From the NCBI RefSeq assembly GCF_988242995.1, contig NZ_OZ547043.1: a stretch of 64,000 nt of DNA; one strand, given 5' to 3'. The notes beneath the pieces were generated by a model that did not search any database, was not told where the DNA came from, and was given only the letters and a program-made list of their open reading frames with translations. Made by a program: the position numbers and the translations under genes. Positions 7,046 to 18,630 of this stretch are shown one piece after another. Positions within the stretch are counted from its first letter, which is position 1, and each line of letters starts with the position of its first letter.

Positions 7046-10000
7046 ATGGGTAAAGGCAGCAGTAAGGGGCATACCCCGCGCGAAGCGAAGGACAACCTGA
7101 AGTCCACGCAGCTGCTGAGTGTGATCGATGCCATCAGCGAAGGGCCGGTTGAAGGTCCGGTGGATGGATTAAAAAGCGTGCTGCTGAACAGTACGCCGGT
7201 GCTGGACAGTGAGGGGAATACCAATATATCCGGCGTCACGGTGGTGTTCCGGGCCGGTGAGCAGGAGCAGACTCCGCCGGAGGGATTTGAATCCTCCGGT
7301 TCCGAGACGGTGCTGGGTACGGAAGTGAAATATGACACGCCGATCACCCGCACCATCACGTCGGCAAACATCGACCGTCTGCGCTTTACCTTCGGTGTGC
7401 AGGCACTGGTGGAAACCACCTCAAAGGGGGACAGGAATCCATCGGAAGTCCGCCTGCTGGTTCAGATACAACGTAACGGTGGCTGGGTGACGGAAAAAGA
7501 CATCACCATTAAGGGTAAAACCACCTCGCAGTATCTGGCCTCAGTGGTGGTGGATAACCTGCCGCCGCGCCCGTTTAATATCCGGATGCGCAGGATGACG
7601 CCGGACAGCACCACAGACCAGCTGCAGAACAAAACGCTCTGGTCGTCATACACCGAAATCATCGATGTGAAACAGTGCTACCCGAACACGGCACTGGTCG
7701 GCGTGCAGGTGGACTCGGAGCAGTTCGGCAGCCAGCAGGTGAGCCGTAATTATCATCTGCGCGGGCGTATTCTGCAGGTGCCGTCGAACTATAACCCGCA
7801 GACGCGGCAATACAGCGGTATCTGGGACGGGACGTTTAAACCGGCATACAGCAACAACATGGCCTGGTGTCTGTGGGATATGCTGACCCATCCGCGCTAC
7901 GGCATGGGGAAGCGTCTCGGTGCGGCGGATGTGGACAAATGGGCGCTGTATGTCATCGGCCAGAATTGCGACCAGTCGGTGCCGGATGGCTTTGGTGGCA
8001 CGGAGCCTCGCATCACCTGTAATGCCTGGCTGACCACGCAGCGCAAGGCGTGGGATGTGCTCAGTGATTTCTGCTCGGCGATGCGCTGTATGCCGGTATG
8101 GAACGGGCAGACGCTGACGTTCGTGCAGGACCGGCCATCGGATAAGGTGTGGACCTATAACCGCAGTAATGTGGTGATGCCGGATGATGGCGCGCCGTTC
8201 CGCTACAGCTTCAGCGCCCTGAAGGACCGTCATAATGCCGTTGAGGTGAACTGGATTGACCCGAATAACGGCTGGGAGACGGCGACAGAGCTTGTGGAGG
8301 ACACGCAGGCCATTGCCCGTTACGGTCGTAACGTCACGAAGATGGATGCCTTTGGCTGTACCAGCCGGGGGCAGGCACACCGCGCCGGGCTGTGGCTGAT
8401 TAAAACAGAACTGCTGGAAACGCAGACCGTGGATTTCAGCGTCGGCGCAGAAGGGCTTCGCCATGTACCGGGTGATGTTATTGAAATCTGCGATGATGAC
8501 TATGCGGGGATCAGCATTGGCGGGCGCGTGCTGGCGGTGAACAGCCAGACCCGGACGCTGACGCTCGACCGTGAAATCACGCTGCCATCCTCCGGTACCA
8601 CGCTGATAAGCCTGGTTGACGGGCAGGGGAGTCCGGTCAGCGTGGAGGTTCAGTCCGTCACCGACGGCGTGAAGGTGAAAGTGAGTCGGGTTCCTGACGG
8701 CGTTGCCGGATACAGCGTGTGGGGGCTGAAGCTGCCGACGCTGCGCCAGCGCCTGTTCCGCTGTGTGAGTATCCGTGAGAACGATGACGGCACGTATGCC
8801 ATCACTGCCGTGCAGCATGTACCGGAAAAAGAAGCCATCGTGGATAACGGGGCGCACTTTGACGGCGACCAGAGCGGCACGGTGAATGGTGTCACGCCGC
8901 CAGCGGTGCAGCACCTGACCGCCGAAGTCACCGCAGACAGCGGGGAATACCAGGTGCTGGCGCGCTGGGATACGCCGAAGGTGGTGAAGGGCGTGAGCTT
9001 TATGCTTCGCCTGACCGTGGCAGCGGATGACGGCAGTGAGCGGCTGGTCAGCACGGCCCGGACGACGGAAACCACATACCGCTTCAGGCAGCTGGCTCTG
9101 GGAAATTACAGTCTGACAGTCCGGGCGGTAAATGCGTGGGGGCAGCAGGGCGATCCGGCGTCGGTATCGTTCCGGATTGCCGCACCGGCAGCGCCATCGC
9201 GGATTGAGCTGACGCCGGGCTATTTTCAGATAACCGCCACGCCGCATCTTGCGGTTTATGATCCGACGGTACAGTTTGAGTTCTGGTTCTCGGAAAATCG
9301 GATTGCGGATATCAGGCAGGTTGAAACCAGCGCGCGTTATCTTGGCACGGCGCTGTACTGGATAGCCGCCAGTATCAATATCAAACCGGGCCATGATTAT
9401 TATTTTTACGTTCGCAGTGTGAACACCGTCGGCAAATCGACATTCGTGGAGGCTGTCGGTCGGGCGAGCGATGATGCGGAAGGTTACCTGGATTTTTTCA
9501 AAGGCAAGATAACCGAATCTCATCTCGGCAAGGAGTTGCTGGAAAAAGTCGACCTGACGGAGGATAACGCCAGCAGACTGGATGAGTTTTCGAAAGAGTG
9601 GAAGGATGCCAACGATAAATGGAATGCCATGTGGGCTGTCAAAATTGAGCAGACCAAAGACGGCAAACATTATGTCGCGGGTATTGGCCTCAGCATGGAG
9701 GATACAGAGGAAGGCAAACTGAGTCAGTTTCTGGTTGCCGCCAATCGTATCGCGTTTATTGACCCGGCAAACGGGAATGAAACGCCGATGTTTGTGGCGC
9801 AGGGCAATCAGATATTCATGAACGAAGTGTTCCTGAAATATCTGACGGCTCCCACCATTACCAGCGGCGGTAATCCTCCGGCATTTTCCCTGACACCGGA
9901 CGGGCGGCTGACGGCGAAAAATGCCGATATCAGCGGTAACGTGAATGCGAACTCCGGGACGCTCAACAACGTCACGATTAACGAGAACTGCCGGGTTCTG

Positions 10001-10441
10001 GGAAAACTGTCCGCGAACCAGATTGAAGGCGATCTCGTTAAAACAGTGGGCAAAGCTTTCCCCCGTGACTCCCGGGCACCGGAGCGGTGGCCATCAGGGA
10101 CCATTACCGTCAGGGTTTATGACGATCAGCCGTTTGACCGGCAAATTGTTATTCCGGCGGTGGCATTCAGTGGCGCTAAGCATGAGAGAGAGCATACTGA
10201 TATTTACTCCTCATGCCGTCTGATAGTGCGGAAAAACGGTGCTGAAATTTATAACCGTACCGCGCTGGATAATACGCTGATTTACAGTGGCGTTATTGAT
10301 ATGCCTGCCGGTCACGGTCACATGACACTGGAGTTTTCGGTGTCAGCATGGCTGGTAAATGGCTGGTATCCCACAGCAAGTATCAGCGATTTGCTGGTTG
10401 TTGTGATGAAGAAAGCCACTGCAGGCATCACGATTAGCTGA
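7046..10441 (+). CDS. Host specificity protein J (central tail fibre / tip attachment protein)
   Basis: 1131-aa ORF; N-terminus [34 protein letters not shown] and most of the length are lambda J-like from memory; the last ~150 aa diverge. Confidence 0.9.
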
Positions 10442-10508: not shown

Positions 10509-11108
10509 ATGCGTAAATTATGTGCTGTTATTCTGTCCGCAGTAGTCTGGCTGGTTGCCGCTGGTACGCCAGCGAGCGCAGCAGAGCATCAGTCCACACT
10601 AAGCGCCGGGTATCTTCAGACCCATACTGATATGCCAGGCAGTGATGACCTGAAGGGCATTAACGTGAAATACCGTTATGAATTTACGGACATGCTGGGG
10701 CTGGTGACGTCATTCAGTTATGCCAATGCCAAAGATGAGCAAAGAACGCATTACAGCGATACCCGCTGGCATGAAGATTCAGTGCGTAACCGCTGGTTCA
10801 GCATGATGGCGGGGCCATCTGTACGCGTGAATGAATGGTTCAGTGCTTATGCGATGGCAGGTGTGGCTTACAGCCGTGTTTCGACGTTCTCCGGGGATTA
10901 TCTCCGCGTAACTGACAACAAGGGGAAAACGCACGATGTGCTGACCGGAAGTGATGACGATCGCCACAGCAACACGTCTCTGGCGTGGGGAGCTGGCGTG
11001 CAGTTTAACCCGACCGAATCCGTGGCCATTGATATTGCTTATGAAGGCTCCGGCAGTGGCGACTGGCGCACTGACGGTTTCATCGTGGGTGTCGGTTATA
11101 AGTTCTGA
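10509..11108 (+). CDS. lom: Lom-like outer membrane beta-barrel protein (Ail/Lom/PagC family)
   Basis: 199 aa with a signal peptide and a C-terminal aromatic residue (…VGVGYKF); lambda lom position between J and stf; bracketed by terminator hairpins. Confidence 0.8.
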   Translation: MRKLCAVILSAVVWLVAAGTPASAAEHQSTLSAGYLQTHTDMPGSDDLKGINVKYRYEFTDMLGLVTSFSYANAKDEQRTHYSDTRWHEDSVRNRWFSMMAGPSVRVNEWFSAYAMAGVAYSRVSTFSGDYLRVTDNKGKTHDVLTGSDDDRHSNTSLAWGAGVQFNPTESVAIDIAYEGSGSGDWRTDGFIVGVGYKF

Positions 11109-11166: not shown

Positions 11167-13530
11167 GTGGATATGGCAGCAGTAAAAATCTCAGGTGTGC
11201 TGAAAGATGGTGCGGGAAAACCAATACAGAACTGCACTATTCAACTGAAGGCAAAGCGTAACAGCACCACGGTACTGGTGAACACGGTGGCCTCTGAAAA
11301 TCCGGATGAAGCCGGGCGTTACAGCATGGATGTTGAGTATGGTCAGTACAGCGTCACCCTGCTGGTTGAAGGTTTTCCGCCTTCACATGCCGGGACCATT
11401 ACCGTCTATGAAGGTTCCAGACCAGGTACGCTGAATGATTTTCTCGGTGCCATGACGGAAGATGATGTCATGCCGGAGGCATTGCGTCGTTTTGAGGCAA
11501 TGGTGGAAGAAGCGGCACGCAACGCCGAAGCCGCCTCTCAGAGCGCAGCAGCGGCAAAGAAATCCGAAACTGCAGCGGCATCATCGAAGAACGCGGCGAA
11601 AACCTCAGAAACAAATGCAGCTAACAGCGCACAGGCGGCAGCGTCCTCGCAGACTGCATCGGCAAACTCCGCGACAGCAGCCAAAAAATCAGAAACCAAC
11701 GCGAAAAATAGCGAGACAGCCGCAAAGACGAGCGAAACCAACGCAAAGTCCAGCCAGACGGCAGCGAAAACAAGCGAAACGAATGCCAAAGCCAGTGAAA
11801 CTGCGGCAAAAAACAGCCAGGTTGCAGCAGCCCAAAGCGAGAGCGCGGCAGCCGGTTCTGCGACTTCAGCAGCTGGATCAGCAACTGCTGCGGCTAACAG
11901 CCAGAAAGCTGCGAAGACGAGTGAAACTAACGCAAAGTCCAGCCAGACGGCAGCGAAGACCAGCGAAACGAATGCCAAAGCCAGCGAAACTGCGGCGAAA
12001 AACAGTCAGGATGCAGCAGCCCAAAGCGAGAGTGCTGCAGCTGGTTCTGCCACTGCATCAGCCAACAGTCAAAAAGCAGCAAAAACCAGTGAAACCAATG
12101 CAAAGACAAGCGAGACTGCAGCGGCGAACTCGGCGAAAGCATCCGCTGCAAGCCAGACCGCTGCAAAAGCAAGTGAAGACGCAGCCAGAGAGTATGCAAG
12201 CCAGGCAGCAGATCCGTATAAATATGTCTTACAGCCGCTGCCTGATGTGTGGATACCGTTTAACGATTCACTGGATATGATTACGGGCTTTTCGCCATCA
12301 TATAAAAAGATTGTTATTGGTGACGACGAAATAACGATGCCTGGCGACAAGATTGTTAAGTTTAAACGTGCATCGAAAGCAACCTATATTAACAAATCTG
12401 GTGTGTTGACAGAGGCTGCCATTGATGAGCCACGATTTGAACGTGATGGCCTGCTTATTGAGGGGCAAAGAACTAATCTTCTGCTTAATTCAACAAATCC
12501 ATCTAAATGGAATAAGTCAGGCAATCTGGAACTCACAGAAATATCCACGGATTCTTTTAATTTTACTTATGGGAGATTTACTGTAAAAGATACTCTTATT
12601 GGTCAGACAAGTGCTATTAATATCGTAACGATTTCTGGCAGTAAAGGGTTTGATGTCACAGGTGATGAAAAATATGTGACCATTTCATGCCGTGTAAGAA
12701 GTGATGTTGAAAATATAAGGTGTCGTTTAAGATTTGAACACCATGATGGTTATACTTACACTTTTTTGGGAGATGCTTACCTCAATTTATCAACACTTGT
12801 AATTGATAAAACTGGTACTGCTGCAGACCGTATTATTGCAAAGGCTGTAAAAGATGAGGTTACTGGTTGGATTTTCTATCAGGCTACAATTAATGCACTA
12901 GATACAGAGAGCATGATTGGTGCGATGGTTCAATACGCTCCTGTAAAAGGTTCAGGTACAGCATCTGGAGACTATCTGGATATCGCAACTCCACAAGTGG
13001 AAGGTGGATCAAGTGCTTCGTCATTTATTGTAACTGATATAACTGCAAGCACTCGCGCAAGCGATATGGTGACAGTCCCAATCAAGAATAACCTTTATAA
13101 TCTTCCTTTTACGGTTCTTTGTGAGGTACATAAGAACTGGTATAAAACGCCAAATGCAGCACCGCGTGTTTTTGATACCGGCGGTCATCAAACCGGAGCG
13201 GCTATTATTCTTGGCTTCGGTCGTTCAACAGATTACGACGGATTTCCTTATTGTGATATAGGTTTGGCTAACAGACGGGTAAACGAAAACGCATCGCTTG
13301 AAAAAATGGTTATGGGGATGCGTGTAAAGTCAGATCAGTCTACGTGCTCAGTAAGTAACGGGCGTATATCCAGCGAAAAGAAAGCCACATGGTCCTATAT
13401 TCAGAACTCCGCAATTATCCGTATTGGAGGCCAGACTACAGCCGGGTTGCGTCATTTATTTGGTCATGTCAGGAATTTCAGAATATGGCACAAGGCATTG
13501 ACTGATGCTCAGATGGGGGAGTCAATCTAA
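11167..13530 (+). CDS. stf: Side tail fibre protein (Stf-like) with a replaced C-terminal receptor-binding region
   Basis: 787 aa; N-terminal region with Ala/Ser/Thr-rich KTSETNAK-type repeats typical of Stf; the C-terminal ~400 aa are markedly AT-richer by eye and end in a motif (GHVRNFRIWHKALTDAQM) reminiscent of ConA/LamG-like lectin folds. Confidence 0.8.
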   Translation: MDMAAVKISGVLKDGAGKPIQNCTIQLKAKRNSTTVLVNTVASENPDEAGRYSMDVEYGQYSVTLLVEGFPPSHAGTITVYEGSRPGTLNDFLGAMTEDDVMPEALRRFEAMVEEAARNAEAASQSAAAAKKSETAAASSKNAAKTSETNAANSAQAAASSQTASANSATAAKKSETNAKNSETAAKTSETNAKSSQTAAKTSETNAKASETAAKNSQVAAAQSESAAAGSATSAAGSATAAANSQKAAKTSETNAKSSQTAAKTSETNAKASETAAKNSQDAAAQSESAAAGSATASANSQKAAKTSETNAKTSETAAANSAKASAASQTAAKASEDAAREYASQAADPYKYVLQPLPDVWIPFNDSLDMITGFSPSYKKIVIGDDEITMPGDKIVKFKRASKATYINKSGVLTEAAIDEPRFERDGLLIEGQRTNLLLNSTNPSKWNKSGNLELTEISTDSFNFTYGRFTVKDTLIGQTSAINIVTISGSKGFDVTGDEKYVTISCRVRSDVENIRCRLRFEHHDGYTYTFLGDAYLNLSTLVIDKTGTAADRIIAKAVKDEVTGWIFYQATINALDTESMIGAMVQYAPVKGSGTASGDYLDIATPQVEGGSSASSFIVTDITASTRASDMVTVPIKNNLYNLPFTVLCEVHKNWYKTPNAAPRVFDTGGHQTGAAIILGFGRSTDYDGFPYCDIGLANRRVNENASLEKMVMGMRVKSDQSTCSVSNGRISSEKKATWSYIQNSAIIRIGGQTTAGLRHLFGHVRNFRIWHKALTDAQMGESI

Positions 13531-13811
13531 TGAAAGATTTAACACTCAAATTTGCAGACAGGGCCGACTTTTCGGCCTTTATGGATAGCATTGGCTATTA
13601 TGATGACGAGTCGATGCAGGATGATATTCTTATTGACGTGATAGGTAACGTGTACAAAGAAACCGGAGAACTGACTGAAGATGGCGAACCGGTATGTGTT
13701 AAGGAAGACGGATATTTTGTAAACGTGCGCATCATTAATGATGCAAAAAAATCGTCAATATTCGATGAATACGCGGTTGTAGTTGAACATCAACTTCGTG
13801 GCTGGATGTGA
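13530..13811 (+). CDS. Hypothetical acidic 93-aa protein; possible tail-fibre chaperone
   Basis: ATG overlaps the stf stop (TAATG), suggesting translational coupling; no family recognised. Confidence 0.4.
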   Translation: MKDLTLKFADRADFSAFMDSIGYYDDESMQDDILIDVIGNVYKETGELTEDGEPVCVKEDGYFVNVRIINDAKKSSIFDEYAVVVEHQLRGWM

Positions 13812-13820
13812 GGGAGACAA

Positions 13821-14525
13821 ATGGCTACATCGACAGTAATTCCAGGAGACATCACCACGTTAAAGGGAGATGTCAGTAAAGCCAAGGAAGATATTTCCTC
13901 AATTAACGGAAAAGTATCAACGCTTCAGGCTGATATGACCAGTGCAAAGCAGGATATCAGCACCAGATACACAAAAACTGAAGTTGATAATAAGCTGAAA
14001 AACAAACTGGAAGTGAACGCTCTGGAAAGCGGTCGTTATGGTGGAGATTTTTACCCGTTGACTGGCCGTGAAGCGTTTTATTTGTGGGGATTGGGCACGA
14101 CTACAGCGGCGGCAAACCTTTATCTTAATCCTGACCCCGCAATTTCGTCTGTGCTGCGGTCAACATCGTCTATCCGCTATAAACATTCAGTAGAGACAAT
14201 AGATTCAGAGCACGCCGAACTCATTTTCAGGATGCGCCCTGTGTGGTACAGGTCACAATGCGAAAATGACAGGCGTGACTGGGGATTCTACGGATTGATT
14301 GCCGAGGAAGTAGGAGAAATTGCCCCTCAGTTTGTACACTGGCGACCAGCTAACGAAGATGATGCACCGGAAGCTATTTCCAGCAATGGCCTTGTTGCCG
14401 AAGGTGTAATGTACGAACGTCTGGTTGTTCCACTGATTCACCATATCCAGAAGCTGACTGAAAGAGTTGATGAACTTGAGTCAGAATTAAAGTTGTTATC
14501 CGTTTCCCGAAGCGATATCGGATAA
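13821..14525 (+). CDS. Short fibre-like protein: N-terminal coiled coil plus C-terminal intramolecular-chaperone (peptidase S74-like) domain
   Basis: 234 aa; heptad-repeat N-terminus; C-terminal region (RPVWYRSQ...WGFYGLIAEEVGEIAPQFV...MYERLVVPLIHHIQKLTERVDELESEL) matches, from memory, the self-cleaving chaperone domain of endosialidase and T5 L-shaped tail fibres. Confidence 0.5.
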   Translation: MATSTVIPGDITTLKGDVSKAKEDISSINGKVSTLQADMTSAKQDISTRYTKTEVDNKLKNKLEVNALESGRYGGDFYPLTGREAFYLWGLGTTTAAANLYLNPDPAISSVLRSTSSIRYKHSVETIDSEHAELIFRMRPVWYRSQCENDRRDWGFYGLIAEEVGEIAPQFVHWRPANEDDAPEAISSNGLVAEGVMYERLVVPLIHHIQKLTERVDELESELKLLSVSRSDIG

Positions 14526-14535
14526 AGGAGGAGTA

Positions 14536-14829
14536 ATGGATATAACACCTTTCCTTCATGCGCTTTGTGCTGTGGCTGCGCAGCTACTGATTGGTCTTTT
14601 TACCGGGAACTGGGCTTACGGGGCGATAGCCGGTTGTACGTTCTTCATTGCGCGTGAACACACCCAGGCAGAATATCGCTGGATCGAAATGTTCGGGCAT
14701 GGCAAGCGAATGAATATGCCGTGGTGGGGCGGTTTTGATCCGCGCGCGTGGGATGTGGCAAGCCTGATGGATTTTGCTGTGCCGGTGGTGGCGTGTCTGC
14801 TGGTCTGGCTGTTGGTTAATCGTGGGTGA
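14536..14829 (+). CDS. Hypothetical small membrane protein
   Basis: 97 aa with two to three hydrophobic segments; GC-rich coding sequence; function unknown. Confidence 0.35.
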   Translation: MDITPFLHALCAVAAQLLIGLFTGNWAYGAIAGCTFFIAREHTQAEYRWIEMFGHGKRMNMPWWGGFDPRAWDVASLMDFAVPVVACLLVWLLVNRG

Positions 14830-14839
14830 AAAAAGGTGA

Positions 14840-14968
14840 GCTGTATATGCAACGGAGGAAGAAACCCCGTTGCTGGAAGCCTGGAAAAAGTATCGGATGC
14901 TGCTGAACCGTGTTGATACATCAACTGCACCTGATATTGAGTGGCCTACGAACCCTGTCAGGGAGTAA
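14840..14968 (+). pseudogene. tfa: 3' remnant of a tail fibre assembly gene (tfa), lacking start and N-terminal part
   Basis: Frame-2 translation gives ...[36 protein letters not shown], which matches the conserved C-terminus of lambda/P2-type Tfa proteins as I recall it; an in-frame stop lies immediately upstream (14837-14839). Confidence 0.55.
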
Positions 14969-15180: not shown

Positions 15181-16038
15181 CTAATTGGGTGATGACAAAT
15201 CCTGTGTATGGGTGTTTCCCTTTGTGCGTGCGTTGATGCTGGTAACGGTGAACGTCATGATGAACACAACCGCGAATAAGACGACAATCGTCGGAGCTGG
15301 TGCACTGTCGATAAAAAAGGACAACCAGACACCAGTCATTGACACTATTACCGATATGCCAATCGCCAGTAGGAGCGCAATATGAAAGCGTTGTGTCAGG
15401 AGTACCGCAATGGCGCCAGGCGCAATGAGCAGAGAAATGGAGAGAATGATACCTACCGCTTTCAGCGTCGCCACAATGGTCAGAGAGACCATGCACAGCA
15501 GCCCATAATGCAGACATCTCGTATGCAAACCGCTTACCTGCGCCTGTTGATAATCAAAGCTGAACAGCAAAAAATCCCGCCATTTTACGCTAATAACAAG
15601 TGTAACCAGCCCGGCAATAATCACCGTCTGGATTATATCGCCGATGGTTACCCCGAGCATGTCGCCGAAAAGAATATGGTCAAGATGTACGTCTGGTTTG
15701 ACTGCAATATACAAGATCAGACCTGCGGCAAACATGCCAGAAAAAACAATCCCCATCACTGTATCTTGCTTGATTCGGCTGTTGTCTTTCAGGTATCCCG
15801 TCGCCACCGCGCAGAATACTCCGGCGACGAATGCCCCTGTAGCCAGAGGTAACCCCAGAATCCAGGCAAGCACGATGCCAGGAAAAACCGCATGACTCAT
15901 CGCGTCACCCATCAGTGCCCAACCTTTCAGGACCAGAAAGACCGACAGCAGCGCACAGGGTATGGAAACTACCAGTGAAATCAGCAGTGCGTGACTCATA
16001 AAGGTGAACTGCAGTGGCTCCAGTAATAATGCCATCAT
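15181..16038 (-). CDS. sitD: Mn/Fe ABC transporter permease SitD
   Basis: 285-aa polytopic membrane protein of the ABC-3 (ZnuB/MntB) type; last gene of a four-gene operon with overlapping stop/start codons. Confidence 0.8.
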   Translation of the reverse strand: MMALLLEPLQFTFMSHALLISLVVSIPCALLSVFLVLKGWALMGDAMSHAVFPGIVLAWILGLPLATGAFVAGVFCAVATGYLKDNSRIKQDTVMGIVFSGMFAAGLILYIAVKPDVHLDHILFGDMLGVTIGDIIQTVIIAGLVTLVISVKWRDFLLFSFDYQQAQVSGLHTRCLHYGLLCMVSLTIVATLKAVGIILSISLLIAPGAIAVLLTQRFHIALLLAIGISVIVSMTGVWLSFFIDSAPAPTIVVLFAVVFIMTFTVTSINARTKGNTHTQDLSSPN

Positions 16039-16892
16039 GAGCGATCCTCCAGCGCTTTATGCGCACGCCGACGATTTGCCAAAAGCCCATGGGTGGGCGC
16101 AAATACAAATGCTAAAAGAAACAGCAGTGTCTGCGCCACCACGATGATTCCACCTGTCGCGCCGTCCAGAAAGTAACTGACCCACGCGCCGAGGAAACTG
16201 GTTACACTGCCAATAGTTACAGCAATTATGAGCAGGCGGGGAAAACGATCGGTTAACAACCATGCTGTTGCACCGGGAGTCACCACCAGACAGATCACCA
16301 GAAAGGCACCAACCGTTTGCAGCGCCGCAACGGTCGAAACCGACAGCAGGGTGAAGAAGAGGATTTTTAATCTGCCCGGATGCAATCCAATAGCACGAGC
16401 GTGATTCTCGTCGAAAAAGGTCACCATAAGATCTTTCCATTTGAAAAAAAGCACGATGATCGAGAGAATGCCAATGATAGTGAGTTGCAGGATATCCGCC
16501 GGATCGATTGCCAGAATATTGCCCAGGACGATGGTCTGAATGTTCACGGATGTCGGGTTCAATGACACCATAAACAGCCCCAGGCCAAAAAAGGAGGAGA
16601 AGATCAGGCCGATGATGGCATCTTCTTTTAAGCGAGTGCGTTGGTTAAGAAACAGCATGCTGCCCGCTGCCAGTCCGCCGGAAAAGAAGGCTCCCAGAGA
16701 AAACGGAAGCCCCAGCATATATGCCCCCGCAACACCCGGGACAATAGAGTGCGACAGCGCATCGCCAATCAGCGACCAGCCTTTTAGCATCAGATAGCAT
16801 GACAGGAAAGCGCAGAGACCGCCGACCATCGCCGAGACCCACATCGCATTGAGCATATATTCATAGCTGAAGGGTTCCAGTAGCACGTTCAT
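16035..16892 (-). CDS. sitC: Mn/Fe ABC transporter permease SitC
   Basis: 285-aa polytopic membrane protein; overlaps sitB and sitD by 4 nt each. Confidence 0.8.
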
Positions 16893-17716
16893 CTTGCTTC
16901 CCCCTGCACCGCTGACGGTCGATGTGCCACAAAAGGGTGTTCATCGTCAGTAATAATGCTTTCTTCCGAGCCGTTAAGTGTGACATGGCGCAGTACGCCG
17001 CTAAAAGCCAGCTCCAGGTTCTCGGCTGTAAAAGTGGTGTCTGTCGGCCCGCTTGCCAGGACGGTGCCTTTGACCATGACCGTATAATCGCAAAATGTCG
17101 TGACTGAGCCGAGATTGTGCGTTGAGACAAGCATCGTCTTGCCTTCCGCGCGTAACTCCCTCAACAGGCTGATGATTTTCGCTTCGGTTTTCACATCAAC
17201 GCCCGTAAAAGGTTCATCCAGCAGGATCACATCACCCTGCTGTGCAATCGCTCTCGCCAGAAAGACGCGTTTCTTTTGTCCACCGGAAAGCTCGCCGATT
17301 TGTCGATGGCGAAAATCCACCATATCGACACGTTCCAGCGCATCGGTGACAATCTGACGATCCCTCTTTTTGGCTATACGCAACATACCCATGTGCCCAT
17401 AGCGGCCCATCATCACCACATCTTCCACTAGTACAGGAAATGACCAGTCAACCTCTTCTGACTGAGGGACGTAGGCAACCAGGTTTTTCTGTAGCGCCTG
17501 TCGCGTGGGAATACCCAGAACAGATATCTTTCCGCTGGTCAGACGCACAAATCCCATAATCGCTTTAAACAACGTCGATTTTCCGGAACCGTTTACCCCA
17601 ACCAGAGCGGCAATAGATCCACTTGGTACTGTGAAGGATGCATCGCGCAGTGCTGTGTGCCCGTTACGCCAGGTGACAGTAACATCATTAACGACAATGC
17701 CCGCAGATTGCATCAT
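16889..17716 (-). CDS. sitB: Mn/Fe ABC transporter ATP-binding protein SitB
   Basis: Walker [10 protein letters not shown], signature LSGGQKKR, Walker B ILLDEP. Confidence 0.85.
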
Positions 17717-18630
17717 TATTTCTCCCTTTTCCCGGCTTTAATTCCCTGTACCAGCGTACTGGTAGTAACCTTCAGAAGGTCGATATACGTAGGTACCGGG
17801 CCGTTTTCTGTGCTCAGGGAATCGACATAGAGTACACCGCCGTAGTGCGCGCCGGTTTCACGCGCAACCTGACGCGCTGGTTTATCGGAAATCGTACTCT
17901 CGCTAAAGACTGCCGGGATATGATTTTTCTTCACCATATCAACAACCTTACGTACCTGCTGCGGCGTGCCTTGTTGATCGGCATTAATCGGCCACAGATA
18001 AAGCTCTTTTAGCCCCAAATCGCGTGCGAGATAAGAAAAAGCCCCTTCACTGGTGACCATCCATCGCTGATTCTCAGGGAGTTCAGCAATCTGCTTACGC
18101 AGGGGGGCAAGGGTTTGGGTAATCTTGGCTTTATAAGTATCGGCATTACGTTGGTAGGTTTGTGCATTTGCCGGATCGTATTTTATCAACGCATCACGAA
18201 TATTATCGACGTAAATCAGAGCATTATCTGGCGACATCCAGGCATGGGGGTTAGGTTTGCCCTCATAGGGGCCTTCAGTGATCCCTACTGGCGTCACACC
18301 CGAAGAGACAATTACTTCTGGAACCCCATTAAGATGCTGGTAAAAGCGTTGGAACCACAATTCCAGATTCATACCATTGGCGAGAATCAGTTGTGCCCCC
18401 TGCGCACGTTTAATATCGCCAGGGGTAGGCTGATACTCATGAATTTCTGCACCGGGCTTGGTTATGGATGAGACTTCTGCAGCATCTCCAGCCACGTTTT
18501 TGGCCATATCTGCGATGATGGTAAATGTTGTAATGACCTTGAATTTTTCAGTTGCACTCGCCTGAAATGCGATCGAGCAGGTGAGGGCGAGGCACCCCAA
18601 GAGCATGGTTACTTTTTTTATTGAGTACAT
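17716..18630 (-). CDS. sitA: Periplasmic metal-binding protein SitA (cluster A-I substrate-binding protein)
   Basis: 304 aa with a signal peptide; first gene of the operon; MntR and Fur boxes lie upstream. Confidence 0.85.

What the first reader, a model, noticed from the sequence alone, without database searches (positions are those of the whole stretch)
13530..13811. Translationally coupled acidic 93-aa ORF directly after stf: candidate novel fibre chaperone
The ATG overlaps the stf stop codon (TAATG), the usual arrangement for a fibre and its dedicated chaperone, yet the protein shows no resemblance to Tfa. Since the original tfa has been lost, this small acidic protein is the obvious replacement-chaperone candidate.
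Basis: inference. Interest (0 to 1): 0.45.

Follow-up and report, generated by a model that had tools for sequence, protein, structure and literature searches.

The report
Conserved small partner of lectin-tipped fibres
The 93-residue gene is real and belongs to a widespread, uncharacterised phage family that always sits directly after tail fibres ending in a lectin-like domain, so it is almost certainly a fibre accessory protein, but whether it is a folding chaperone or a structural connector is unresolved.

Summary
ORF 13530-13811 encodes an acidic 93-aa protein (pI 4.2). Its ATG overlaps the stf stop codon (TAATG), and it is under purifying selection (dN/dS about 0.24).

It is not an orphan. 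It matches PHROG family phrog_1361 (function unknown) over its full length and has no Pfam, NCBIfam or PDB relative. It folds confidently (pLDDT 90) into a small alpha/beta sandwich unlike any known fibre chaperone.

The family occurs in lambdoid, T1-like, T5-like, Dhillonvirus, Nonagvirus and rV5-like phages, and in distant metagenomic phages. Wherever upstream sequence was available, it follows a fibre whose C-terminus is a GTA-spike-fibre domain plus a LamG/pentraxin-like jelly roll. Its start almost always overlaps the fibre's stop codon.

This cassette replaced the stf 3' end and tfa, leaving a tfa remnant.

The small protein stays constant while the lectin core and the distal fibre vary. 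It also persists where no distal fibre exists, so its partner is Stf.

A chaperone role is plausible but unproven. A fused AlphaFold2 test gave no confident docking. This is a candidate new type of fibre accessory protein, of moderate interest.

The parts
11167..13530 (+). stf, side tail fibre (787 aa from the GTG at 11167; the likely true start is the ATG at 11173). N-terminal PF08400 domain, Ala-rich repeats, then the conserved C-terminal module.
   Evidence: PF08400 E = 1e-66; phrog_1419 full length.
12454..13059 (+). GTA head-spike-fibre-like domain of Stf (aa 430-631).
   Evidence: NCBIfam NF048003 scores 60.4 bits against a cut-off of 36. PDB 6tb9 Rcc01080 matches at E = 2.4e-4.
13066..13527 (+). 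C-terminal LamG/pentraxin/CBM40-like jelly-roll domain of Stf (about aa 634-787). The core is hypervariable; the last 20-40 residues (…HLFGHVRNFRIWHKALTDAQMGESI) are conserved.
13530..13811 (+). The finding: an acidic 93-aa protein of family phrog_1361, whose start overlaps the stf stop codon (TAATG).
13821..14525 (+). Short distal fibre (234 aa). It has a conserved N-terminal anchor (MATSTVIPGDITTLK…), a coiled coil, and a Peptidase_S74 intramolecular chaperone domain (aa 116-172, nt 14166-14336).
   Evidence: PF13884 E = 5e-6, above its cut-off. It matches the C-terminus of phrog_3299 and T5 pb1 (8hqz). Anchor conservation.
14536..14829 (+). 97-aa predicted membrane protein (phrog_1443), the last gene of the lambdoid version of the cassette.
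   Evidence: It is 89% identical to the gene that follows the small ORF in phage PhiR40_1.
14849..14968 (+). 3' remnant of tfa (…[32 protein letters not shown]), a scar of the replaced stf-tfa end.
   Evidence: RefSeq annotates the same stretch in strain S88 as 'tail fiber assembly protein, incomplete'.

Best explanation
The ORF encodes a dedicated accessory protein of tail fibres that end in a GTA-spike-fibre domain plus a LamG-like lectin domain.

Proposed mechanism:
1. It is made by translational coupling with Stf, in roughly equal amounts (shown: overlapping stop and start codons, and a Shine-Dalgarno-like run).
2. It acts on the conserved framework at the very C-terminus of the fibre, not on the variable receptor-binding core (inferred from conservation patterns).
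3. The most likely activity is to help the three Stf chains assemble or mature at their C-terminal end, that is, a new kind of fibre assembly factor. It may stay bound afterwards (inferred, not shown).
4. The downstream short fibre is an optional add-on that docks on the Stf/small-protein unit. It matures through its own S74 intramolecular chaperone and so does not need this protein for folding.
For: Coupling to the fibre:
- Of 178 fetched loci with upstream sequence, 177 have the start overlapping the fibre stop codon (127 of the TAATG type, 50 of the ATGA type).
- This holds for all 19 distinct clusters that have upstream sequence, and for further divergent loci. The one variant seen is SP15, with a 1-nt gap.

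Same fibre ending everywhere:
- The upstream protein always ends with the same LamG-type ending.
- The Stf C-terminal module occurs in 218 phage records and the small protein in 186. Apparent exceptions that I checked do carry a homologue: SP15 (hhalign probability 99.2%), PhiR40_1 and PhiR11_1_star.

Independence from the distal fibre:
- The small protein persists where no distal fibre follows: PhiR40_1, the LL12-type Vequintaviruses (36 records with a full-length match of at least 51%), L094, L090 and L093.
- The converse does not hold. The distal-fibre anchor is found only in phages that also have the small ORF.

Other properties:
- All homologues are acidic, pI 4.05-4.36, and the conserved fibre tail is rich in R, H and K.
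- The protein is a compact, confidently folded domain whose conserved C-terminal tail has low confidence when modelled alone, as expected for a partner-binding element.
- The distal fibre carries its own chaperone domain.
Against: There is no direct evidence of binding or chaperone activity.
- The fused LamG + small protein + distal-N-terminus AlphaFold2 model gave pTM 0.48. The small protein's pLDDT fell from 90 to about 70-90, and its tail stayed disordered. This test has limits: it was monomeric, the alignment had only 30 rows, artificial linkers were used, and neither PAE nor coordinates were available.
- The protein does not co-vary with the hypervariable LamG core, unlike Tfa-type chaperones, whose C-terminal half tracks the fibre tip.
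- LamG/pentraxin folds normally need no chaperone (established knowledge).
Confidence: 0.5

Rival explanations
1. It is a structural connector rather than a chaperone. The small protein stays in the virion at the distal end of Stf. Together with the conserved last ~25 residues of Stf, it forms the socket for the N-terminal anchor of the second fibre, giving a branched fibre with two receptor-binding modules.
For: In five E. coli phage lineages the order fibre, small ORF, S74 fibre is fixed, with only 2-12 nt between the last two genes. The conserved block is exactly the last 20-40 aa of the fibre, the whole small protein and the first ~20 aa of the distal fibre, while both flanks vary. The anchor occurs only where the small ORF occurs. 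The BASEL paper models IrisVonRoten gp24 attached to the proximal fibre gp22 and leaves the intervening gp23, a homologue, unexplained.
Against: The gene is kept in many loci with no adjacent distal fibre. The distal N-terminus stayed at pLDDT below 50 in the fused model. Gordonclarkvirinae join a T-shaped fibre to a proximal fibre encoded by the adjacent gene (Gp9-Gp10; PMC11990801); I did not check whether a small gene lies between them.
Confidence: 0.27
2. It has a function unrelated to fibre structure, for example a regulator, an anti-defence or exclusion factor, or a transient cap that blocks the lectin domain. On this view it sits there only because the conserved junction is a hotspot for module exchange.
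For: No known function or fold relative exists. The junction region is a clear mosaic boundary. 'Chaperone caps' are discussed in PMC11990801.
Against: Strict stop/start overlap with the fibre gene is kept down to about 25% identity and across six or more phage lineages, which is hard to explain without a shared function. The protein has no signal peptide or membrane segment (read directly from the sequence). A cap over the binding surface should co-vary with that surface, and it does not.
Confidence: 0.12
3. It is a chance ORF or an annotation artefact.
For: None beyond its small size.
Against: Full-length PHROG match, hundreds of homologues, dN/dS 0.24, and a confident fold.
Confidence: 0.01

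Closest known systems
Tfa / gpU-type tail fibre assembly proteins of lambda, Mu and P2 (Pfam Caudo_TAP)
   Same: A small gene immediately downstream of the fibre gene and dedicated to one fibre type. In this prophage it occupies the position where tfa used to be.
   Different: No sequence similarity and a different predicted fold. It does not co-vary with the fibre tip. Its partner domain is a monomeric-type lectin jelly roll, not a trimeric beta-helical tip.
Peptidase_S74 intramolecular chaperone (T5 pb1, K1F endosialidase)
   Same: A conserved folding module combined with highly variable receptor-binding parts. It is present in the same cassette.
   Different: S74 is a C-terminal, self-cleaving domain of the fibre itself. 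Here it belongs to the downstream 234-aa fibre, not to the 93-aa protein.
Two-part or branched lateral fibres of T5-like phages (DT57C LtfA/LtfB; IrisVonRoten gp22/gp24)
   Same: A proximal fibre carrying a second, distal fibre with its own receptor-binding domain. IrisVonRoten gp22-gp23-gp24 is the direct homologue of window Stf, small ORF and distal fibre.
   Different: In the two papers read here, DT57C is described with only LtfA and LtfB (PMC10713586). The role of gp23 is not addressed in PMC11990801.
T4 gp35 / gp36 hinge proteins and T4 gp38 / gp57A chaperones
   Same: Small accessory proteins that join or fold the halves of a composite fibre (from my knowledge of T4; not tested here).
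   Different: No family hit of any kind and a much smaller protein. The comparison is one of function only.

Membership tests
phrog_1361 (PHROG family, unknown function) | Full-length profile match | tested here: met
   E = 8.3e-47, residues 1-93 against profile positions 1-92 of 92.
Tfa-type tail fibre assembly protein (Pfam Caudo_TAP and relatives) | Sequence match to the family profile | tested here: not met
   No Pfam family at E up to 1 and no NCBIfam family at E up to 0.1. No PDB chain at E below 0.1.
Tfa-type tail fibre assembly protein | Fold similar to solved Tfa or gpU structures | tested here: not met
Fibre chaperone in the functional sense | Required for folding or trimerisation of the cognate fibre and binds it | not testable with these tools
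   Only indirect data exist: obligate synteny against no confident docking in a fused 1:1:1 AlphaFold2 model.
Peptidase_S74 intramolecular chaperone | PF13884 domain | tested here: not met
   Absent from the 93-aa protein. Present in the next gene (27 bits against a cut-off of 22).
LamG / concanavalin-like lectin fold (for the Stf C-terminus, the presumed partner) | Jelly-roll fold matching LamG, pentraxin or CBM40 domains | tested here: met
GTA head spike fibre domain (NCBIfam NF048003, for Stf aa 430-631) | Score above the curated cut-off | tested here: met
   60.4 bits against a cut-off of 36. PDB 6tb9 Rcc01080 matches at E = 2.4e-4.

The most novel reading that the evidence does not exclude
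The protein founds a new class of fibre accessory protein. It would be a constant 'hub' that binds the conserved C-terminal framework of lectin-tipped fibres. Together with the last ~25 residues of the fibre and the first ~20 residues of a distal fibre, it would form a universal junction. That junction would let very different phages (lambda-, T1-, T5-, Dhillonvirus-, Nonagvirus- and rV5-like) swap two receptor-binding modules independently.
Probability: 0.3. Interest if true: 0.6.

Novelty: new variant of a known kind. Interest (0 to 1): 0.45.

Why it matters
Lectin-tipped side fibres with this cassette occur in many E. coli prophages: 182 of 5,426 complete genomes carry nearly this exact region, and many more carry variants. 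They also occur in phages used as models or for therapy, including BASEL phages and T1- and T5-like phages.

Anyone who transplants such receptor-binding modules onto lambda or other chassis needs to know which neighbouring genes must travel with them. The data here say that the 93-aa gene is an inseparable partner of this fibre type, yet no database or paper searched here assigns it a role.

Showing whether it is an assembly factor or a virion connector would fill a gap in the published models of two-part lateral fibres. It would also define a fibre accessory family unrelated to Tfa, gp38, gp57A or S74.

Tried and rejected
- Pfam, NCBIfam and PDB sequence searches of the 93-aa protein found nothing.
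- Two long proteins in the representative search, a C-type lectin repeat protein and a TPR protein, matched in several stretches but are spurious.
- The fused LamG + small protein + distal-anchor AlphaFold2 model gave no confident packing.
- Literature searches found no statement on this protein: BASEL 2021 and 2025, the DT57C structure, Hf4s, Gifsy-1 and Eligo lambda engineering. I did not find virion proteomics for a phage carrying the gene. rV5 itself was not among the rows shown when I searched with the LL12 homologue.
- The first scan of viral contigs returned only near-identical E. coli prophages. Diversity came from the representative search and from the phage GenBank collection.

Full report
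**The observation.** The window carries the tail end of an E. coli lambdoid prophage: J (7046-10441), lom (10509-11108) and stf (11167-13530). An ORF then starts at 13530 with an ATG that shares a base with the stf stop codon (TAATG), preceded by a GGGGGAG run. The 93-aa product is acidic (pI 4.17). It has no Pfam, NCBIfam or PDB sequence relative.

**It is a real gene.** The ORF matches PHROG family phrog_1361 (unknown function) from end to end at E = 8e-47. It has 228 clusters of close relatives, mostly E. coli 'hypothetical proteins' seen on hundreds of contigs. Median dN/dS is 0.24 across 43 alleles. A profile search of 1.84 billion representative proteins found only 64 hits. Many are fragments, but about 30 are full-length relatives down to roughly 25% identity. 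These share M-x-D-L-x-L-K-F at the N-terminus, D-x-I-G, G-Y-x-V-N-x-R and a C-terminal P-x-R-V-W-A.

The ORF is the second gene of a cassette:
- Nine bases after the ORF starts a 234-aa protein (13821-14525). It has a conserved N-terminal anchor, a coiled coil and a Peptidase_S74 intramolecular chaperone domain. This is a short second fibre that carries its own folding device.
- Next comes a 97-aa membrane protein (14536-14829, phrog_1443).
- Then comes a 39-codon 3' remnant of tfa (14849-14968).

No promoter- or terminator-like site interrupts the run. The whole cassette, not the small ORF alone, replaced the stf 3' end and tfa.

**What Stf ends in.**
- Stf aa 430-631 match the NCBIfam 'GTA head spike fibre' domain above its cut-off, and the RcGTA head spike fibre in PDB 6tb9.
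- Homologues carry weak Pfam Laminin_G_3 hits.
- The BASEL authors describe the equivalent part of IrisVonRoten gp22 as a protruding 'galectin-like' domain and a possible extra receptor-binding domain (PMC11990801).

The same arrangement occurs in:
- lambdoid phages (Tritos, HannyBb, 2G7b, PhiR phages);
- Drexlerviridae (KarlJaspers, SLUR29 and many others);
- Dhillonvirus (KarlBarth);
- Nonagvirus (JenP2);
- T5-like phages (IrisVonRoten gp22-23-24, SP15);
- a subset of Vequintavirus (LL12, FFH2 and others);
- several metagenomic lineages.

Among the 178 fetched loci with upstream sequence, the small gene's start overlaps the stop codon of a large upstream gene in 177. Of these, 127 are the TAATG type and 50 the ATGA type. 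These loci are redundant, but the rule holds in all 19 distinct clusters that have upstream sequence and in the extra divergent loci. SP15 is the only variant, with a 1-nt gap.

The upstream protein always ends in the same LamG-type ending. By tblastn, the Stf C-terminal module is in 218 phage records and the small protein in 186. Three apparent exceptions that I checked (SP15, PhiR40_1, PhiR11_1_star) all carry a homologue. The gene is therefore an obligate neighbour of this fibre type.

**Which partner?** The downstream S74 fibre follows 2-12 nt later in the E. coli siphophage lineages. Its N-terminal anchor (M-[AV]-T-x-T-x-I-P-x-D-I-x-x-L-K) is found only in phages that also have the small ORF.

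The reverse is not true. The small ORF is kept without any adjacent distal fibre in:
- the lambdoid phage PhiR40_1, where Stf, small ORF and membrane protein are followed by the integrase;
- the LL12-type Vequintaviruses;
- the metagenomic loci L094, L090 and L093.

The basic unit is therefore lectin-tipped fibre plus small protein, and the distal fibre is an optional addition.

**Conservation pattern.** I compared identity to the reference residue within two large clusters:

| Segment | Lambdoid (55 unique loci) | P0179-type (65 unique loci) |
|---|---|---|
| Small protein | 88-99% | 82-94% |
| Fibre receptor-binding region | 47-75% | 16-57% |
| Last 20-40 fibre residues | 85-94% | 60-90% |
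| First 20 residues of the distal fibre | 91% | 62% |
| Rest of the distal fibre | about 60% | about 35% |

The small protein is thus a constant element between two variable receptor-binding modules. It cannot be contacting the variable lectin surface. If it binds Stf, it binds the conserved framework. All homologues are acidic (pI 4.05-4.36), whereas the conserved fibre tail is rich in R, H and K.

**Interaction test.** With the last structure job I folded a fusion with a 30-row paired alignment. The fusion was Stf(613-787), a 25-residue linker, the small protein, a second 25-residue linker, and the distal fibre residues 1-45. The results were as follows:
- The LamG domain folded well.
- pTM was only 0.48.
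- The small protein's pLDDT dropped to about 70-90.
- Its C-terminal tail and the distal anchor stayed below 50.

This gives no support for a stable 1:1:1 complex. The test is weak, however. It had no trimer, it omitted the GTA-spike-fibre domain, it used artificial linkers, and neither PAE nor coordinates were returned.

**Interpretation.** The evidence strongly supports 'fibre accessory protein tied to the lectin-tipped C-terminal module of Stf'.
- I favour an assembly or maturation factor that works on the conserved C-terminal framework and may stay bound (about 0.5). The reasons are that it is retained without a distal fibre and that the distal fibre has its own chaperone.
- The main rival is a virion connector that forms the socket for the distal fibre (about 0.27). 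The conserved junction block and the anchor's dependence on the small ORF favour it. The loci without distal fibres count against it.
- An unrelated function is unlikely (about 0.12), given stop/start coupling kept across six or more lineages and down to 25% identity.

**Literature.** None of the papers read assigns a role to this protein:
- The BASEL papers annotate the third gene as 'putative lateral tail fiber chaperone' and the IrisVonRoten homologue simply as 'tail fiber protein'. They model gp22 and gp24 without discussing gp23.
- DT57C branched fibres are described with LtfA and LtfB only.

**Verdict.**
- The link to Stf is confirmed and generalised.
- The 'replacement chaperone' reading is plausible but unproven, and incomplete.
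- The protein is a catalogued but uncharacterised family that is probably a new type of fibre accessory protein.
- Interest is moderate, at 0.45.

Noticed in passing
window 15181-18630 (minus strand); locus L181 (phage 4A7, NC_049946): The sitDCBA iron/manganese transporter operon abuts the fibre cassette. The lambdoid phage 4A7 (a GenBank phage record) carries sitD and sitC directly after the same small ORF and 97-aa gene, so the sit operon appears to travel as phage cargo. In 4A7 three transposase ORFs (an insertion element) also sit between stf and the small ORF.
   Followed up: partly
window 14849-14968: A 39-codon 3' remnant of tfa (…[32 protein letters not shown]). It is a scar showing that the lectin-fibre cassette replaced the original stf 3' end and tfa.
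   Followed up: yes
window 14536-14829: A 97-aa predicted membrane protein (phrog_1443, unknown function) closes the lambdoid version of the cassette. It is 89% identical in PhiR40_1, where it directly follows the small ORF. Its role is unknown.
   Followed up: partly
window 12454-13059: The middle of the Stf C-terminal module is homologous to the head spike fibre of the Rhodobacter gene transfer agent (NCBIfam NF048003; PDB 6tb9 Rcc01080). This is an unexpected link between a GTA head decoration and coliphage side fibres.
   Followed up: partly
window 13821-14525: The 234-aa gene is a very short fibre consisting of little more than an anchor, a coiled coil and an S74 chaperone domain. Relatives in other phages range from 98 to 719 aa with different receptor-binding parts behind the same ~20-residue anchor.
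   Followed up: partly
window about 11540-12200: Stf contains long Ala-rich tandem repeats (…AAKTSETNAKSSQTAAKTSETNAKASETAAKNSQ…). These generate many spurious overlapping ORFs on both strands.
   Followed up: no
locus L095 (phage LL12) 6001-6333: The Vequintavirus version of the small protein is longer (110 aa). It has lost the conserved C-terminal P-x-R-V-W-A tail, and these phages also lack the adjacent distal fibre. This may be a hint about what the tail binds.
   Followed up: no
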